64,000 nt of DNA. Origin: Escherichia coli. Lineage in GTDB: Bacteria; Pseudomonadota; Gammaproteobacteria; Enterobacterales; Enterobacteriaceae. The stretch is from assembly GCF_003334355.1 (NCBI RefSeq), contig NZ_QOWP01000020.1, one strand, 5' to 3'. The notes under the pieces are model-generated. The model worked only from the letters and a program-made list of their open reading frames with translations. It searched no databases and had not been told where the DNA came from. Below are positions 2-6,828 of this stretch, one piece after another (position 1 is the first letter of the stretch; each line of letters starts with the position of its first letter). A program made the translations under genes and the position numbers.

Positions 2-619
2 GAAAAACGAGTATTTTTAGTCATCCTGTTTACCTCTTTCTCAGGGAGTTTAGTCTCCAGGATTTCCGGGGCGGTTCAGAAGGAGGGGTATCGCCTACGC
101 TTTCATACCGGCAATAAGCAACGTATTTATTCCCTTTTGCATGACGGGAGCGCCGATCTCGCTGTTACCGCATCTATGCCTGATGACCGTCTGTACGGCT
201 ATGCACATCTACTGACTGAACGCATGCTCCTTGTTCATGCTCCCGCCATGTCAGAGATCATCGGATCAGAACCTGGTGCTGAAACGCTTGCCTCATTACC
301 GCTGATTGCTTATGACGAAGAGTTGCCACTGATTAGAGCGCTCTGGGCCTCCATGTTTCAGAGAGCCCCTGAGATGCAGGCTACATTCACCATTCCGGAT
401 TTACGTATTATCCGCGACTTGGTCTGTGACGGCCACGGGTGGACAGTGCTGCCGGATTATCACTGTGACAATGACCTGAAAAGTGGTCGCCTGATTTCAG
501 TGACACCTGCAGACCTCGCTCCGACTAATCATCTTTATCTGGTCTGGAACAAAAGGACGGCTAATAACAGCCGAACCGCCTATGTTCGGGATTACATTCT
601 TAAAACGTTTCCGCGTTGA
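2..619 (+). CDS. LysR-type transcriptional regulator, C-terminal effector-binding portion; 5' end lies upstream of the window
   Basis: Frame is open from the window edge to the stop at 617-619; the track ORF starts at an internal TTG (137). Assignment to LysR family is from overall sequence pattern, not a search. Confidence 0.5.
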   Translation, partial: EKRVFLVILFTSFSGSLVSRISGAVQKEGYRLRFHTGNKQRIYSLLHDGSADLAVTASMPDDRLYGYAHLLTERMLLVHAPAMSEIIGSEPGAETLASLPLIAYDEELPLIRALWASMFQRAPEMQATFTIPDLRIIRDLVCDGHGWTVLPDYHCDNDLKSGRLISVTPADLAPTNHLYLVWNKRTANNSRTAYVRDYILKTFPR

Positions 620-663
620 TGTTTGAAACGGATGATTGGCGATGCGTATCATAAGTTACGTAT

Positions 664-700
664 GTCCGCTTCTGGCACAAAGCAGACGCCCACTCTCACG
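664..700. repeat. Imperfect ~37-bp hairpin-containing repeat, copy A (GTCCGCT-TCTGGCACAA-AGCAGAC)
   Basis: About 28/38 identity to copy B at 4337-4373; 7-bp arms with a conserved TGGCACAAAGC core. Read directly. Confidence 0.5.
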
Positions 701-749
701 CGAATGCTTTGCCCTTGACTTGCCAACAACCGTATCGCTTGCTCCGCAA

Positions 750-2027
750 CTATGGTTTTTTATTAGAATCTTCGCCACTAAATAAATTATAATAAATTGA
801 TTTTATTAGATATCTGTCAGAATCTATATGGTCAGCACGAGTAGCATGCTCTAATGTTTCAAATGCTAGGGTTTGTGCGGCTTCAGCAAAAATTCCAGGC
901 CAACCCTTACTCAGCATCGACAGTCCTTTAAGTACCCTTATCTGAATTTCCCTCATACTGGCACCATCGCGCGCAACAGGTGAGAAAAAGTCTTCAAGTA
1001 GATCGTTATTCTGAAGTGGTGCAACATGTACAGAAGGATATTTCACTTCTATTTCATCAGATTTATTCTGCGCGTAAGCGGAAAGTATACGTACACCTCT
1101 GCCAATGACATCAATGGCGGTTCCAGGATCGTTCACTGCGGGGGAAAGGGCTCGGCAGGCTATTTCGGCCATGACGCTAAGACAAAATCGGGGGTCCTGA
1201 GCAAATGAACGTACATCCGAGACAATAATCGTCTCAAGTAAATCGGTGCTGATTGATGACTCCTGGCCCTGACTCAGGTACAAAACTGGCGTGGACGGAT
1301 GTATGAAACTGCCCGGCTGCGCCACGAGGTATACATGACGGGGATCATTGGTCAGCAGCTTGCTGAGTTTCACCATATCAACATATTCAACATAGCCAAT
1401 CTTTTTCGGATAAACTGCAACCGTTCCTTTCGGCTGTTCATTGTTCTCAAGCCATGGATATCCGCCGAGACAGGGATTTCTTGCTCTCGCAATAAATGTT
1501 TCGATGGCCGCCTGTTCTACTTTTGCCGTTGTCTCACCAACCCTCCCCAGAGAGGTCAAATGCTGTATCCAGCGAAGCAATGTGATGAGGATTAAGGCAA
1601 TGACAACCAGTGTTACAATGAATAAAATGACTCTCCCCCTTTCTCCATAAGCTCCCATATTGAGGGCAATAATCCCTACCAGACTGAAGAGAAAAGAACC
1701 GATGAAGGTGGCCAGTACATTTTGTGTGGTGACGTCTTCAACAACTAAACGAGTAGCTCTGGGAGTCACATTAGTAGTGGCTGAACCGTAGGCTGTGACC
1801 ATGATGCTCAGCGAAAATGTGGTCACTGCCAGCATACTCGATGCCAGTATGTTCAGAATGTTATCGACTGCTTCCGCACCAACCTTCACGGAAACCGACT
1901 CAGGTATCATTGATTTAAAAAGAATTGATAAAAGGGCCGTTATTATTGCGACAATTGCGAATAACGTTGCCCTGAACCATAGTTTTTTAAATGTCTGCTT
2001 CAGCATCCATTTCCAGCGTGAAATCAT
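750..2027 (-). CDS. DUF2254-like integral membrane protein (four N-terminal TM helices plus soluble C-terminal domain)
   Basis: ORF 750..2042; start moved to the second ATG (MISRWKW) which has a GAGGG RBS about 8 nt upstream. Four hydrophobic segments in the first ~150 aa. Gene is AT-rich compared with neighbours. Confidence 0.55.
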   Translation of the reverse strand: MISRWKWMLKQTFKKLWFRATLFAIVAIITALLSILFKSMIPESVSVKVGAEAVDNILNILASSMLAVTTFSLSIMVTAYGSATTNVTPRATRLVVEDVTTQNVLATFIGSFLFSLVGIIALNMGAYGERGRVILFIVTLVVIALILITLLRWIQHLTSLGRVGETTAKVEQAAIETFIARARNPCLGGYPWLENNEQPKGTVAVYPKKIGYVEYVDMVKLSKLLTNDPRHVYLVAQPGSFIHPSTPVLYLSQGQESSISTDLLETIIVSDVRSFAQDPRFCLSVMAEIACRALSPAVNDPGTAIDVIGRGVRILSAYAQNKSDEIEVKYPSVHVAPLQNNDLLEDFFSPVARDGASMREIQIRVLKGLSMLSKGWPGIFAEAAQTLAFETLEHATRADHIDSDRYLIKSIYYNLFSGEDSNKKP

Positions 2028-2052
2028 TCTGCATTCCCTCATATTGCAGCCG

Positions 2053-2081
2053 GGATAAATAAATGCCGCCTCTGTGGCGGC
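2053..2081 (-). terminator. Candidate intrinsic terminator/attenuator between the BCCT gene and the DUF2254 gene
   Basis: GCCGCC-N5-GGCGGC hairpin (2065-2081) followed on the minus strand by AUUUAUUUAU, starting about 10 nt after the BCCT stop. Confidence 0.4.
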
Positions 2082-2090
2082 ATGTTGCTG

Positions 2091-4094
2091 TTAACGAACC
2101 AGATGCAGGAAGTGCAGGTGTTTTTCGTACTGGTCCAGTATGTCATTAATCAGCTGTTCCTGATTCCAGCCCATTACATCATAATTTTGGCCGCCCTCTT
2201 TGAGATAGACTTCAGCGCGATAATATCGATGTTGTTCACTCTGCTGCTCATCATTATCCAGCGCAGCGAGCGCGAAGGTCGGTGAGTTATACCCGCGAAG
2301 CCTCACTTCATATATATAATTCAGCTCGTTGCCCAAATCGACTTCAAGGCGAATACGATCCTCGGCGGCGTCACTGATGTGGCTTATCGTTCCCTGCTTG
2401 TTAAGTTCCTCCTGAACCAGCGTCATGGCGGGTTGGATAATGTCGTCCATAAAACGTTTCACAAGAGAGCGCTTCGGCAAATACGCGATATTGCGTAACC
2501 TTCTCTGCCAGGGAATTGGGTTACGTGCAGCCGTAGGAGCAATAGTCGCCATGCTAAGGCTTTCACGCTTGGTCAAATCCCGACGCAGGGCTTTTAACAG
2601 TCCGTATATGGATATTAATAAGATAACTGAGAAGGGCAATGCACTCGCTATCGTTACGGTTTGCAACGCACTCAGCCCCCCTGCGATCAGCAGGGCAATA
2701 GCAACAACGCCCATGAGCGATGCCCAGAAAATTCGCTGCCAGACGGGCGTGTTTGCCACCCCACCTGATGCCAGAGTATCCACAACCATTGCCCCCGAAT
2801 CAGCAGACGTTACAAAGAAGACGATGACCATCGCCATTGCAATGAATGACAGCACGGAAGAGAACGGGAAATGCTCCAGGAAATTAAACAGGGCAAGCGC
2901 AACATCCTGCTGAACGGTATTGGCGAGGTCAGTGGCGCCCTGGTTCATGATGAGATAGATGGCGCTGTTTCCAAACACCGTCATCCACATGAGCGTAAAG
3001 CCGGCGGGAACAAACAACACGCCAGTCACGAACTCACGAATTGTCCTGCCGCGGGAAACGCGTGCAATGAACATACCTACAAACGGCGACCATGAAAGCC
3101 ACCATCCCCAGTATAATAATGTCCAGCCCCCCAGCCAGTTGCTCGACTTGGGTTCATACGCGTAAAGGTTGAACGTTTTACTCACCAGTTCCGACAGATA
3201 ACCACCCGTATTTTCCACAAATGACTTCAGCAGAAGCACAGTGGGACCCAGGCACAAGACCAGCGCCAGGAGCAACACCGCCAGGCCCAGATTAAGCTCA
3301 GACAGGATGCGTATTCCCTTGTCCAGGCCGGACACCACCGAAATCGTCGCTAACCCCGTGATGACCACGATCAAAATGACCTGTACCGTTTCATTGATGG
3401 GCACGCCGAAAAGATGGTTCAAACCGGCATTCACCTGCAATACACCGTAACCCAGCGATGTTGCAACGCCAAAGACAGTGCCTATCACGGCGAAGATATC
3501 AACCGCGTGGCCTATAGGCCCGTAAATGCGATCGCCGATAATGGGATAGAGCGCAGAACGCAGCGTTAAAGGCAGACCGTGACGGTAACTGAAAAAGGCC
3601 AGAATCAGCGCCACGATGGCATAAATTGCCCATGCGTGCAGACCCCAGTGGAAGAACGTCAGGCGCATGGCTTCCTTCGCTGCCGCAACGGTCTCTGGAG
3701 TGCCGACAGGTGGCGAAAGATAATGCATCACAGGTTCGGCAACGCCAAAGAACATCAGGCCGATCCCCATCCCTGCCGAAAAAAGCATCGCGAACCAGGA
3801 GTGGTAGCTGAAATCAGGCTGCGCATGGTCTGGGCCCAGCTTTATATCACCGTAACGTGAGAGTCCAAGGAACGTGACGCTCAGTAAAATCAGGGCCACA
3901 GCAAGTATGTAGAACCAGCTGGCATTCGTGAAGATTTGTTGCTGAAGTAGTTTAAAATTTTTGTCGGCGACATCCGGGAATACGGCGGCAAAGGCGACAA
4001 GAAGGAAAATTAGCAAAGCAGATGTAAAGAATACCGCTTTGTTAATCTGGCTTGTAGACTTCTTTGGGGTTGTATCATTTTCACTCATAATCAT
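2091..4094 (-). CDS. BCCT-family transporter (betaine/carnitine/choline type), BetT-like with long C-terminal cytoplasmic extension
   Basis: 667-aa ORF. Conserved BCCT motifs (GWTLLYWGWWLSWSPFVGMFIARVSRGRTIREF) and overall similarity to E. coli BetT recalled from memory; clearly not identical to betT, caiT or yeaV. Confidence 0.8.
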   Translation of the reverse strand: MIMSENDTTPKKSTSQINKAVFFTSALLIFLLVAFAAVFPDVADKNFKLLQQQIFTNASWFYILAVALILLSVTFLGLSRYGDIKLGPDHAQPDFSYHSWFAMLFSAGMGIGLMFFGVAEPVMHYLSPPVGTPETVAAAKEAMRLTFFHWGLHAWAIYAIVALILAFFSYRHGLPLTLRSALYPIIGDRIYGPIGHAVDIFAVIGTVFGVATSLGYGVLQVNAGLNHLFGVPINETVQVILIVVITGLATISVVSGLDKGIRILSELNLGLAVLLLALVLCLGPTVLLLKSFVENTGGYLSELVSKTFNLYAYEPKSSNWLGGWTLLYWGWWLSWSPFVGMFIARVSRGRTIREFVTGVLFVPAGFTLMWMTVFGNSAIYLIMNQGATDLANTVQQDVALALFNFLEHFPFSSVLSFIAMAMVIVFFVTSADSGAMVVDTLASGGVANTPVWQRIFWASLMGVVAIALLIAGGLSALQTVTIASALPFSVILLISIYGLLKALRRDLTKRESLSMATIAPTAARNPIPWQRRLRNIAYLPKRSLVKRFMDDIIQPAMTLVQEELNKQGTISHISDAAEDRIRLEVDLGNELNYIYEVRLRGYNSPTFALAALDNDEQQSEQHRYYRAEVYLKEGGQNYDVMGWNQEQLINDILDQYEKHLHFLHLVR

Positions 4095-4336
4095 TTATTC
4101 CATTAATTAAATCCGCACTGGATAGAAGGTACTACCTCTCACAGAGTAGCAAAGTTCAACTGGCTATGCGGGGTTAATCGGAATGCATGGTGGAATGAGT
4201 GCCGATACAAATCATCCTATATTCTAAGGAGTTTTAAGTTACTCAGCCTGCCAATTACTGGGGCATTTAATTTGTATGATCTGTATCAAAGCTGGGATAT
4301 AAGTTAAGTGAAGTATATTAGGCACGAATTACCAGC

Positions 4337-4428: not shown

Positions 4429-4851
4429 TCACTTCAATAAATACCGAACATCCCCCTGATAAAACGACAATATGCGCTGCATAACTTCGCTCTTCCGGCA
4501 CTCGCGACAGATTATGTTTAGGCGACTGTCGTAGCGACGTATTTCTCCGTCAGGTAATGACCAGATAAGGTCCGGATCAACCACAACCGGTTTCTTCAGC
4601 TTTGCCCTCGATAATTTTTTGCGGGCATTTTGCCAGTCTTTACGAGCCTGTTCAGACGGGAATAACCCGTAGCCAGAATTGTATACATCGCCACTGGCAA
4701 CCAGCTCTCTGGCCAGAACGCTCATCAGATATCTTGTTGCCCCAGTTTTAGCTTCCAGTTGTCGTAACGTCTCGCGCCCACTCTGGCGTACGAGTTCAAG
4801 AACCTGCCCTTTAATTTTTTCCCGCTCTTCTTGTGTAAAAACTTTTGCCAC
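4429..4851 (-). CDS. Hypothetical prophage protein, 140 aa, basic, possible winged-helix segment
   Basis: ORF directly downstream of the ydaU-like gene; no Walker A motif, so not the DnaC-like ydaV expected at this position in K-12 Rac. No family recognised. Confidence 0.45.
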   Translation of the reverse strand: MAKVFTQEEREKIKGQVLELVRQSGRETLRQLEAKTGATRYLMSVLARELVASGDVYNSGYGLFPSEQARKDWQNARKKLSRAKLKKPVVVDPDLIWSLPDGEIRRYDSRLNIICRECRKSEVMQRILSFYQGDVRYLLK

Positions 4852-4891
4852 AAGCCCTCCTGAAAATTACCTCATGACCAGAAATTAACAC

Positions 4892-5968
4892 TTACCCCCT
4901 GAAGCCCGGCGGAATTTCGTTATCCGGTTCAGAAATATGATTCACACAACGCTGGTTGTTCGTGCCGCTTACCGGGAGCAACCAGGGGTTCTCAAAATTC
5001 CGGTCCGGTCCAAAAAACGTCGTCGCTCGCTGAACAAATTCCGTTCCCGTTTTCCCGGTAGCCGCCAAGTATCTTGCGTAACGCCTCACGCCATCCAGCA
5101 TGGCCTCTGGTGGCACCCCCTCGCGTAATCTGGCCTTCCAGGCACTGAAAGCGGATTTCTTCGGGTTTGCCCCAGCACGCAACGGGTACTCCCGCCAGAC
5201 CTGTTCGAACACATCCGGATAATCCACTCGTCCCACAGACTGCCCGGTGTTTTCCGGGACTACCCGATCGGCTTCCCGCTGAATGGCGGAATCGGCTTCA
5301 GGCTGCTGCAGTTGGTGTGATTGCTCCGCCCTTGCGGTCATCACCTGCTGCACAGCGCCCGAATCGGCTTTCAGCGCATACGCTGAATCGGCTTCCGGTG
5401 TCGTGCCTGCTGGCTGACCAAGATTGACGGTCTGAACATCCCCTGCCTGGTTCGTGGCGTTTTTTACGCCATGGACCATAGTGTTTTGATCTTCTTGATC
5501 TGTATCTTTATCTGTATCTTTATCTGTCGTGACTCGTCGTGACATGTGCGTGACATTTCGTGACGCGCCGTGACAATCGCCATTTTGTTCCCGCTTTCTT
5601 TCCCTCTCTCGCTGCGCCCTCTTGCGCTCTGCAGGAGATTTTGCGGTTTGCGAAATATTGCCGTTGTCCTCTTTAAGCACCTGGCGTTTTTCCCATCCAG
5701 TGATTAAATCACCATCAAGTACCCGCCCCTGCATCGTCTGCAAAATTGAATCAATTACCTCTTCTGTCACGTCGAGCGCACTTGCCAAATCTTCTGTCGT
5801 GACATCAATGTGACCTCGCGTGACATTTCGTGACGCGCTCACCAGGAGGTGGATATACACTGCCATCACTGTTGCAATTGGCTGTCCTGACACCCTGGCA
5901 ATTGTTCGCCACTTAGGGTCATTTGGCATGTCATGCCATAATCTGAGCCAGGCGTTAGCCATACTCAC
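4892..5968 (-). CDS. ydaU: YdaU-like prophage replication protein (DUF1376-like N-terminus, DnaT-like C-terminus, repeat-rich acidic linker)
   Basis: 358-aa ORF next to ydaT as in K-12 Rac; contains internal DNA direct repeats. Longer than the 285 aa I recall for K-12 YdaU, so treated as ydaU-like. Confidence 0.55.
   Translation of the reverse strand: MSMANAWLRLWHDMPNDPKWRTIARVSGQPIATVMAVYIHLLVSASRNVTRGHIDVTTEDLASALDVTEEVIDSILQTMQGRVLDGDLITGWEKRQVLKEDNGNISQTAKSPAERKRAQRERERKREQNGDCHGASRNVTHMSRRVTTDKDTDKDTDQEDQNTMVHGVKNATNQAGDVQTVNLGQPAGTTPEADSAYALKADSGAVQQVMTARAEQSHQLQQPEADSAIQREADRVVPENTGQSVGRVDYPDVFEQVWREYPLRAGANPKKSAFSAWKARLREGVPPEAMLDGVRRYARYLAATGKTGTEFVQRATTFFGPDRNFENPWLLPVSGTNNQRCVNHISEPDNEIPPGFRG
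5526..5576. repeat. Iteron-like cluster 1: five CGTGAC direct repeats at 10-11 bp spacing, preceded by an AT-rich TATCTT/TATCTG repeat tract (5489-5527)
   Basis: CGTGAC at 5528, 5538, 5549, 5559, 5569; read directly. Confidence 0.6.
5797..5836. repeat. Iteron-like cluster 2: four (C/T)GTGAC direct repeats at 10-11 bp spacing, plus an inverted GTCACG at 5767-5772
   Basis: Repeats at 5798, 5809, 5819, 5829; the 19-mer GCGTGACATTTCGTGACGCG is shared with cluster 1. Confidence 0.6.
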
Positions 5969-6724: not shown

Positions 6725-6752
6725 AGCTACTCCTTAGTAAACACAGCAAAGA

Positions 6753-6828
6753 ATACCCATAGGTAAACAAAAGTCAATACCCACAGGTTGTTTACCTTGC
6801 AGTAATCGCATCTATTATTTACCTATGG
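6753..6828. promoter_or_regulatory. Divergent racR / ydaS-ydaT control region with repeated ATACCCATAGGTA-type operator half-sites
   Basis: ATACCCATAGGTAAAC (6753-6768), TACCCACAGGTTGTTTACC (6778-6796) and its inverted copy TATTTACCTATGG (6816-6828, overlapping the racR start). Confidence 0.5.

What the first reader, a model, noticed from the sequence alone, without database searches (positions are those of the whole stretch)
4429..4851. Unrecognised 140-aa basic protein in the slot where K-12 Rac has the DnaC-like ydaV
The gene directly downstream of the ydaU-like replication gene has no Walker A motif and no family I recognise. It has a possible helix-turn-helix stretch (TLRQLEAKTGATRYLMSVLARELVASG) and a Lys/Arg-rich segment. 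Its position suggests a replication-module or accessory prophage function.
Basis: inference. Interest (0 to 1): 0.45.

Follow-up and report, generated by a model that had tools for sequence, protein, structure and literature searches.

The report
Lambda Ren-like (DUF977) prophage protein
The "unrecognised" 140-residue basic protein is an ordinary member of a catalogued prophage family (Pfam DUF977, "Ren-like exclusion protein") related to phage lambda Ren; it occupies the same place after the replication genes and is found in about three quarters of complete E. coli genomes.

Summary
The ORF is real. It lies on the minus strand at 4429..4851, has a GTG start with AGGAGG 4 nt upstream, and encodes 140 aa (pI 9.8) with no Walker A motif. 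It is under purifying selection (dN/dS 0.10-0.37).

It does belong to a recognised family. It matches Pfam DUF977 over its full length (E 4e-28) and PHROG 142, "Ren-like exclusion protein" (E 5e-45), the PHROG that contains phage lambda Ren. A profile-profile comparison of DUF977 against Ren homologues gives 97% probability (E 5e-11).

The architecture is an N-terminal winged helix, a basic helix, a disordered linker that lambda Ren lacks, and a conserved C-terminal motif N-x-[IV]-C-x-ECRxSxxMxR[IV]LxFY.

RefSeq annotates the same gene as "DUF977 family protein" in 3967 of 5426 complete E. coli genomes, and phage records call it "LygF".

In every related locus examined it lies in the early rightward operon. 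In all but one it closes the replication module, either after a DnaC-like loader or directly after the initiator. So this is the "ren slot", not a replacement for ydaV. K-12 Rac lost the gene in the deletion that truncated ydaW.

Its function is inferred from lambda Ren: a replication-module accessory that protects the phage from Rex-type exclusion. The family's mechanism remains unknown. Verdict: already known, low interest.

The parts
4429..4851 (-). CDS of 140 aa: Ren-family / DUF977 / 'LygF' protein (RefSeq WP_001151151.1)
   Evidence: ORF. Pfam DUF977, E 4.3e-28, residues 1-135. PHROG 142, E 4.7e-45. 100% identical and annotated 'DUF977 family protein' in E. coli CP53 and others. dN/dS 0.10-0.37.
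4856..4861 (-). Shine-Dalgarno sequence AGGAGG, 4 nt upstream of the GTG start
   Evidence: Read directly from the sequence. A GGAG-type motif lies at the same distance in most homologous loci.
4657..4833 (-). N-terminal winged helix-turn-helix, residues ~7-65 (helices 7-24, 29-36 and 40-53, plus a beta-hairpin wing)
   Evidence: AlphaFold2 model with pLDDT >90. Foldseek top hits are MarR/GntR/IclR/Z-alpha/RPA2 winged helices with probability 0.9-1.0 but E >0.01. This region aligns with residues 7-50 of lambda Ren.
4597..4653 (-). Basic helix, residues 67-85 (EQARKDWQNARKKLSRAKL); contains the nearly invariant W73
   Evidence: Model helix 67-85 with pLDDT >90 up to about residue 80. Charge count. 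W73 conservation.
4519..4596 (-). Variable, probably disordered linker, residues 86-111; largely absent from lambda Ren
   Evidence: pLDDT about 50. Gapped and variable in the alignments.
4459..4518 (-). Conserved C-terminal motif N-x-[IV]-C-x-E-C-R-x-S-x-x-M-x-R-[IV]-L-x-F-Y, residues 112-131; the most conserved part of the family and shared with lambda Ren
   Evidence: Invariant N112, E117, C118, R119, S121, M124 and R126 across DUF977 members plus Ren. BLASTP against the Ren C-terminus gives E 5e-6. hhalign. Model helices 116-119 and 122-131.
4892..5968 (-). Context: upstream replication-initiator gene (358 aa, PHROG 3729), very likely co-transcribed with the DUF977 gene
   Evidence: PHROG 3729, E 2e-257. 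No significant Pfam hit. Only the C-terminal tail resembles K-12 YdaU and DnaT. The same initiator-then-DUF977 pair occurs in phages Tritos and vB_EcoS-813R8.
6750..6777 (-). Context: pR-like promoter candidate (TTGACT-16-TATTCT) upstream of the ydaS/cro-like gene; probable start of the operon that ends with the DUF977 gene
   Evidence: Consensus scan only. Assigning the operon to this promoter is an inference from gene order.

Best explanation
The ORF encodes a member of the Ren / DUF977 / 'LygF' family of lambdoid-phage early proteins.

Shown here:
- It is a full-length DUF977 and PHROG 142 member and is homologous to lambda Ren.
- It consists of a winged helix, a basic helix, a flexible linker and a strongly conserved C-terminal helix motif (ECRxSxxMxR[IV]LxFY).
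- It is the last gene of the rightward early operon's replication block (cro/ydaS-like, cII/ydaT-like, initiator, then this gene), the place ren holds after O and P in lambda.
- It is under purifying selection and is carried by sequenced phage genomes.

Inferred:
- After prophage induction or infection it is made together with the replication initiator.
- Like lambda Ren, it then acts as a non-enzymatic accessory of the replication module that keeps the phage's own replication from triggering, or succumbing to, Rex-type abortive-infection exclusion by a resident lambdoid prophage.
- The conserved C-terminal helix would contact a conserved partner: a Rex-like protein, the initiator complex or a host factor.
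- The winged helix and basic helix would hold it on DNA or on the replication complex.

It is not a substitute for the DnaC-like loader YdaV.
For: Family membership:
- Pfam DUF977 E 4.3e-28 over residues 1-135.
- PHROG 142 E 4.7e-45 for the query and 1.6e-41 for lambda Ren.
- hhalign of DUF977 against Ren alignments gives probability 97.1%, E 5e-11, covering both the winged helix and the C-terminal motif.
- Residues are invariant across both groups.

Synteny:
- Lambda has O-P-ren.
- Rac-SA53 has ydaU-ydaV-ydaW-lygF.
- Stx phage 75/02, phiSTEC1589 and PhiR5_2 have initiator-DnaC-YdaW-LygF.
- Tritos and 813R8 have initiator-LygF, as in the window.
- Divergent members (31-38% identity) lie after HTH_36-type or unclassified initiators, with or without an IstB/DnaC-like gene.

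Real gene: dN/dS 0.10-0.37, a conserved start and Shine-Dalgarno sequence, and presence in 3967 of 5426 complete E. coli genomes.

Function of Ren, from the literature:
- ren mutants of heteroimmune lambda grow poorly on Rex+ lysogens, with suppressors in O and P (Toothman & Herskowitz 1980, as summarised in the supplement of bioRxiv 10.1101/2021.04.19.439022).
- Ren interacts with RexA and RexB in bacterial two-hybrid assays.
- Ren interacts with RexB in yeast two-hybrid (PMC3224144).
Against: - The functional part rests entirely on analogy with lambda Ren, which is only about 22% identical and lacks the ~40-residue basic helix and linker.
- Ren's own mechanism is unresolved.
- The two-hybrid signals for Ren are modest. 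In the yeast screen Ren also scored with several unrelated baits in the same vector pair, so the interactions may not be specific.
- This prophage carries no rexAB, so any anti-Rex role would concern other resident prophages.
- The recognition helix of the winged helix varies across the family. That fits phage-specific DNA binding, that is a regulator, as well as it fits a scaffold role.
- In one phage (PhiR46_1) the gene follows a small exonuclease-like gene rather than an initiator.
Confidence: 0.7

Rival explanations
1. It is a sequence-specific transcriptional regulator (MarR/GntR-like winged helix) that controls phage or host promoters, and has nothing to do with exclusion or replication.
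For: The winged-helix fold has MarR, GntR and IclR regulators as top structural hits. Lambda Ren has a weak PHROG hit to a 'MarR family regulator' family (phrog_1687, E 1.5e-10). Truncated Ren fragments are annotated as MarR family in NCBI. The recognition helix varies between phages, as expected for differing DNA specificities.
Against: There is no significant Pfam MarR/GntR match. All Foldseek E-values are above 0.01, and only the ~65-residue generic domain superposes. The MarR-type dimerisation helices are absent. The most conserved part of the family is the C-terminal helix, not the DNA-reading helix. The position fixed to the replication block is not explained.
Confidence: 0.17
2. It functionally replaces the DnaC-like helicase loader YdaV in replication modules that lack one, acting as an ATP-independent helicase-recruitment adaptor essential for replication. 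This is the reading suggested by the first reader's title.
For: In the window, Tritos, 813R8, L011 and L012 the module contains only an initiator and this gene. No DnaC-, P- or YdaW-like gene exists anywhere in the window. The preprint held in the library describes ren as 'likely involved in DNA replication'.
Against: The family co-occurs with a DnaC/IstB-like loader in L005, L008, L010 and L015, and with P in lambda, so it is not an alternative to a loader. There is no Walker A motif or AAA+ domain. Heteroimmune lambda ren mutants are described as growing poorly specifically on Rex+ lysogens, which implies ren is not essential for lambda replication. The initiator itself carries a DnaT/YdaU-like C-terminal tail that could recruit host primosome proteins.
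Confidence: 0.08
3. It is a decaying or non-functional ORF of a cryptic prophage.
For: The window's Rac-type element carries a cargo island directly after this gene. K-12 Rac shows that this region is prone to deletion.
Against: dN/dS is 0.10-0.37 with dS up to about 1. The reading frame is intact with a conserved start and Shine-Dalgarno sequence. The gene is present in sequenced phage genomes and in 73% of complete E. coli genomes.
Confidence: 0.03

Closest known systems
Phage lambda Ren (NP_040633, 96 aa)
   Same: Same PHROG (142). Homology holds by profile-profile comparison (97%, E 5e-11). Both have an N-terminal winged helix and the C-terminal N-x-x-x-x-ECRxSxxMxRVLxxY motif. Both genes lie immediately after the replication genes in the rightward early operon.
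   Different: About 22% identity. The query is 44 residues longer, with a basic helix and a disordered linker between the two conserved parts. It has C115, giving a CxxC pair that Ren lacks. Lambda Ren itself does not score on the Pfam DUF977 model. The Rex-escape phenotype is known only for lambda Ren.
Pfam PF06163 (DUF977), called 'LygF' in GenBank phage records (Rac-SA53, Shigella Stx phages 75/02 and POCJ13, mEp460-like phages)
   Same: Full-length member, 65-96% identical to these proteins, with the same length, motif and gene position.
   Different: Nothing essential. The last ~6 residues differ (GDVRYLLK against GNFQEVMA) because a mosaic junction falls inside the 3' end of the gene. 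No paper in the searched library explains the name LygF.
K-12 Rac YdaV (DnaC/IstB-like AAA+ loader) and YdaW
   Same: They are neighbours of the initiator in the same operon. YdaW also contains winged-helix-like repeats and gives a marginal hit to PHROG 142 (E 2e-4).
   Different: No detectable BLASTP similarity to YdaW. YdaV is an ATPase of PHROG 50, whereas the query has no ATPase motif. Both are absent from the window. In intact Rac-type phages they precede the DUF977 gene rather than replace it.

Membership tests
Pfam DUF977 (PF06163) | Significant full-length match to the family HMM | tested here: met
   i-Evalue 4.3e-28, query residues 1-135 on model positions 1-133 of 134. All 120 listed close homologues carry PF06163.
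PHROG 142 'Ren-like exclusion protein' | Significant match to the PHROG profile that contains lambda Ren | tested here: met
   Query E 4.7e-45. Lambda Ren E 1.6e-41 on the same profile.
Lambda Ren family | Sequence homology to lambda Ren over both conserved regions | tested here: met
   hhalign of A3 against A2: probability 97.1%, E 5.1e-11, query residues 20-129 against Ren 7-94. BLASTP of the C-terminal motif gives E 5e-6. There are seven invariant residues in the joint alignment.
Lambda Ren family | Gene located directly downstream of the replication genes in the pR operon | tested here: met
   Window, lambda and 11 of 12 other loci where context was available. The exception is PhiR46_1.
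Lambda Ren family | Confers escape from RexAB exclusion (the phenotype that defines ren) | not testable with these tools
   This needs plating of deletion or complemented phages on rex+ lysogens. Only literature on lambda Ren is available.
DnaC/IstB-like helicase loader (YdaV) | AAA+ domain with a Walker A motif | tested here: not met
   No [AG]xxxxGK[ST] motif. No IstB_IS21 or Bac_DnaA Pfam hit. The PHROG hits differ from those of YdaV.
MarR-type transcriptional regulator | Winged-helix DNA-binding domain | tested here: met
   AlphaFold2 model. Foldseek hits to MarR/GntR/IclR winged helices at probability up to 1.0 but E >0.01.
MarR-type transcriptional regulator | Family HMM match and N/C-terminal dimerisation helices flanking the winged helix | tested here: not met
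   No MarR Pfam hit for the query. Lambda Ren scores MarR_2 only at E 0.2. The model shows a single basic helix and a disordered linker after the domain.

The most novel reading that the evidence does not exclude
The Ren/DUF977 family could be a widespread, still uncharacterised counter-defence or replication-adaptor module. Its invariant C-terminal ECRxSxxMxRVLxFY helix would dock on one conserved target: a Rex-like abortive-infection protein, DnaB or another host factor. In loader-less modules like this one (initiator plus Ren-like only) it could be needed for efficient phage replication. My evidence does not exclude this, because no partner, DNA target or phenotype was testable.
Probability: 0.15. 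Interest if true: 0.5.

Novelty: already known. Interest (0 to 1): 0.13.

Why it matters
It matters little as a discovery. The gene is catalogued in Pfam, PHROGs, RefSeq and GenBank and is common in E. coli prophages.

Its residual value is as a reminder. A gene present in about 73% of complete E. coli genomes, and homologous to a lambda gene named decades ago, still has no known molecular mechanism. The domain layout defined here (winged helix, basic helix, linker, invariant C-terminal helix) indicates which residues to mutate. The existence of two-gene replication modules (initiator plus Ren-like) offers a simple genetic system to test whether Ren-like proteins act in replication or in escape from exclusion.

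Tried and rejected
- PDB sequence search: no hit below E 0.18.
- Foldseek against PDB and BFVD: only generic winged-helix matches, all with E >0.01, and nothing that covers the C-terminal motif.
- NCBIfam and PADLOC: no hits for the query or for lambda Ren, so it is not a listed defence-system component.
- Literature: 'DUF977' appears in one paper, and only as a winged-helix domain fused to Fic. 'LygF' with 'phage' gives nothing. 'Ren-like exclusion' appears only as an annotation label. The most relevant paper (Thomason & Court 2022, Phage 3:153) is not held in the library.
- K-12 YdaW as a truncated homologue: rejected. There is no BLASTP similarity and it belongs to a different PHROG (630).
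- A second copy in the window, or a hidden DnaC/P/YdaW homologue: none found.
- Co-variation between the Ren-like N-terminus and the initiator type: rejected. Rac-SA53 has a near-identical DUF977 gene next to an unrelated initiator.
- A terminator downstream of the gene: none detected on the minus strand.

Full report
**1. The observation**

The finding's coordinates hold a 140-codon ORF on the minus strand (4851 to 4429).
- It starts with GTG, has AGGAGG 4 nt upstream (4861-4856), and ends with TGA.
- Homologues in eleven other loci start at the same aligned position with ATG or GTG, most behind a similar Shine-Dalgarno sequence.
- The protein is basic (28 K+R against 18 D+E, pI 9.8) and has no Walker A motif. 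The Lys/Arg-rich stretch is residues 67-88.
- Nei-Gojobori dN/dS against eight phage homologues is 0.10-0.37, with dS up to about 1. It is therefore a protein-coding gene under purifying selection.
- The ORF lies 40 nt downstream of a 358-aa replication-initiator gene (4892..5968, minus strand), which in turn follows ydaT/cII-like and ydaS/cro-like genes.

The descriptive part of the finding is confirmed.

**2. What it is**

The protein belongs to a recognised family.
- It matches Pfam DUF977 (PF06163) end to end (E 4.3e-28).
- It matches PHROG 142, "Ren-like exclusion protein" (E 4.7e-45).
- The identical sequence is annotated "DUF977 family protein" (WP_001151151.1) inside a Rac-type prophage next to ttcA in E. 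coli CP53 and many other strains.
- The gene alone is found at 80% coverage or more in 3967 of 5426 complete E. coli genomes, with up to five places per genome.
- The exact initiator-then-DUF977 arrangement is found in 1536 genomes.
- In GenBank phage records the same protein is called "LygF" or "Ren-like exclusion protein". I found no paper explaining the name LygF.

**3. Relationship to lambda Ren**

- Lambda Ren (96 aa, the gene immediately after O and P) scores 1.6e-41 on the same PHROG.
- A joint alignment shows two shared blocks: an N-terminal helix-turn-helix region and a C-terminal motif N-x-[IV]-C-x-E-C-R-x-S-x-x-M-x-R-[IV]-L-x-F-Y.
- N112, E117, C118, R119, S121, M124 and R126 are invariant in the joint alignment.
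- To test this independently of PHROGs, I aligned DUF977 members without Ren (A3) and Ren homologues without DUF977 (A2). hhalign gave 97.1% probability and E 5e-11 over query residues 20-129 against Ren residues 7-94.
- Lambda Ren itself does not reach the Pfam DUF977 model, so the link does not show up in a Pfam scan alone. It is already embodied in PHROGs and in phage annotations derived from it.
- The family is narrow. There are 99 cluster representatives at 50% identity in 1.8 billion proteins, and all hits that carry an organism name are Escherichia or Shigella.

**4. Anatomy**

An AlphaFold2 model built on 16 sequences has mean pLDDT 79. It shows:
- a confident basic helix at residues 67-85;
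- a low-confidence linker at residues 86-113, which lambda Ren lacks;
- short helices at 116-131 that carry the conserved motif.

Foldseek against PDB and BFVD returns only generic winged helices (MarR, GntR, IclR, Z-alpha, RPA2), all with E >0.01. No solved structure matches by sequence.

Across the family the C-terminal helix is the most conserved part and the putative recognition helix is variable. I read this as a conserved protein partner for the C-terminus, which is an inference.

**5. Context and the "ydaV slot"**

In every related locus with context the gene lies in the early rightward operon, and in all but one it lies at the end of the replication block.

| Locus | Gene order |
|---|---|
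| lambda | O-P-ren |
| Rac-SA53 | ydaU-ydaV-ydaW-lygF |
| Stx phage 75/02, phiSTEC1589, PhiR5_2 | initiator-DnaC-YdaW-LygF |
| L015 | HTH_36 initiator-IstB/DnaC-DUF977 |
| Tritos, vB_EcoS-813R8, L011, L012, the window | initiator-DUF977, no loader |

- The exception is PhiR46_1, where the gene follows a small exonuclease-like gene.
- The family thus coexists with DnaC-like loaders and is not an alternative to them.
- The window contains no DnaC-, P- or YdaW-like gene at all.
- K-12 YdaW is unrelated to the query and is truncated. It covers positions 1-155 of the 253-position PHROG 630 profile and is followed by rzpR. The intact Rac-SA53 has lygF right after ydaW. K-12 Rac has therefore most likely lost its Ren-like gene by deletion.
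- The initiator here is not a YdaU orthologue. It has no Pfam DUF1376 domain, and BLASTP similarity to K-12 YdaU is limited to the last 19 residues (..PD..IPPGFRG) and a low-complexity linker. That tail also weakly resembles the C-terminus of DnaT.

**6. How it probably works**

What is known comes from lambda.
- According to the supplement of Thomason et al. (bioRxiv 10.1101/2021.04.19.439022), heteroimmune lambda ren mutants grow poorly on Rex+ lysogens, and suppressors map to O and P (Toothman & Herskowitz 1980).
- Ren gives bacterial two-hybrid signals with RexA and RexB.
- A yeast two-hybrid screen found a RexB-Ren interaction (PMC3224144).
- The authors state that Ren's function is not elucidated and suspect a role in replication.

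By homology and synteny I propose the following.
- The window's protein is made with the initiator from the pR-like promoter after induction.
- It acts as a non-enzymatic accessory that shields the phage's replication from Rex-type exclusion.
- Its C-terminal helix contacts the conserved partner.
- The winged helix and basic helix anchor it to DNA or the replication complex.

Only family membership, architecture, synteny and selection are shown. The mechanism is inferred.

The rivals are:
- a plain transcriptional regulator;
- a loader substitute, which the co-occurrence with DnaC and P argues against;
- a decaying ORF, which dN/dS contradicts.

**7. Novelty and verdict**

The family, its link to Ren and its genomic position are all already in public resources.

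What remains open is the mechanism of the whole Ren/DUF977 family, and nothing in this window illuminates that in a new way. Interest is low (0.13).

The most novel reading not excluded is that the conserved C-terminal helix defines a widespread anti-abortive-infection or replication-adaptor function. I give it about 15% probability.

Noticed in passing
window 4892-5968 (-): The 358-aa 'ydaU-like' initiator is not a YdaU/DUF1376 protein. It has no significant Pfam hit and belongs to PHROG 3729. It shares only its last ~19 residues (..PDNEIPPGFRG) and a TDKDTDKD linker with K-12 YdaU, and the tail weakly matches the C-terminus of DnaT. Initiators of other families upstream of DUF977 genes in L011 and L012 end in the same ..GFRG tail, which suggests a portable C-terminal docking peptide.
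   Followed up: partly
window 5536-5574, 5796-5834 and 5493-5528: Inside the initiator gene there are two clusters of four CGTGAC repeats, about 10-11 nt apart, lying 260 nt from each other. There is also a 3 x 12-nt tandem repeat that encodes DKDTDKDTD. The repeat clusters look like iteron arrays, so the origin may lie inside the initiator gene, as ori lambda lies inside O.
   Followed up: partly
window ~137-4330, and L001 5739-11989: A non-phage cargo island lies immediately after the DUF977 gene, between it and hokD and the nin-like genes of the Rac-type prophage. It contains a BCCT-family transporter (2091..4094, minus strand), a DUF2254 membrane protein (750..2042, minus strand), a LysR regulator, a gamma-glutamylcyclotransferase and an MFS transporter. 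Other Rac-type phages carry different inserts at the same point.
   Followed up: partly
window 4429-4446: A mosaic recombination junction falls inside the last ~6 codons of the DUF977 gene. Homology to Rac-SA53 and 813R8 stops at 4446, whereas homology to Tritos continues to 4329. This gives alternative C-terminal tails (GDVRYLLK against GNFQEVMA/GNFQEAVL) on otherwise near-identical proteins.
   Followed up: partly
L003 5753-6313 (K-12 ydaW) compared with L004 5223-5984: K-12 YdaW is a truncated member of PHROG 630, which has two winged-helix-like repeats. The K-12 Rac deletion that fused it to rzpR also removed the DUF977/lygF gene that follows ydaW in the intact Rac-SA53.
   Followed up: partly
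L009 (phage PhiR46_1) 3402-4420: Here the DUF977 gene follows a 200-aa 'exodeoxyribonuclease VIII'-annotated gene, and the phage carries a large primase on the opposite strand. This is the one case seen where the Ren-like gene is not adjacent to an initiator or loader.
   Followed up: no
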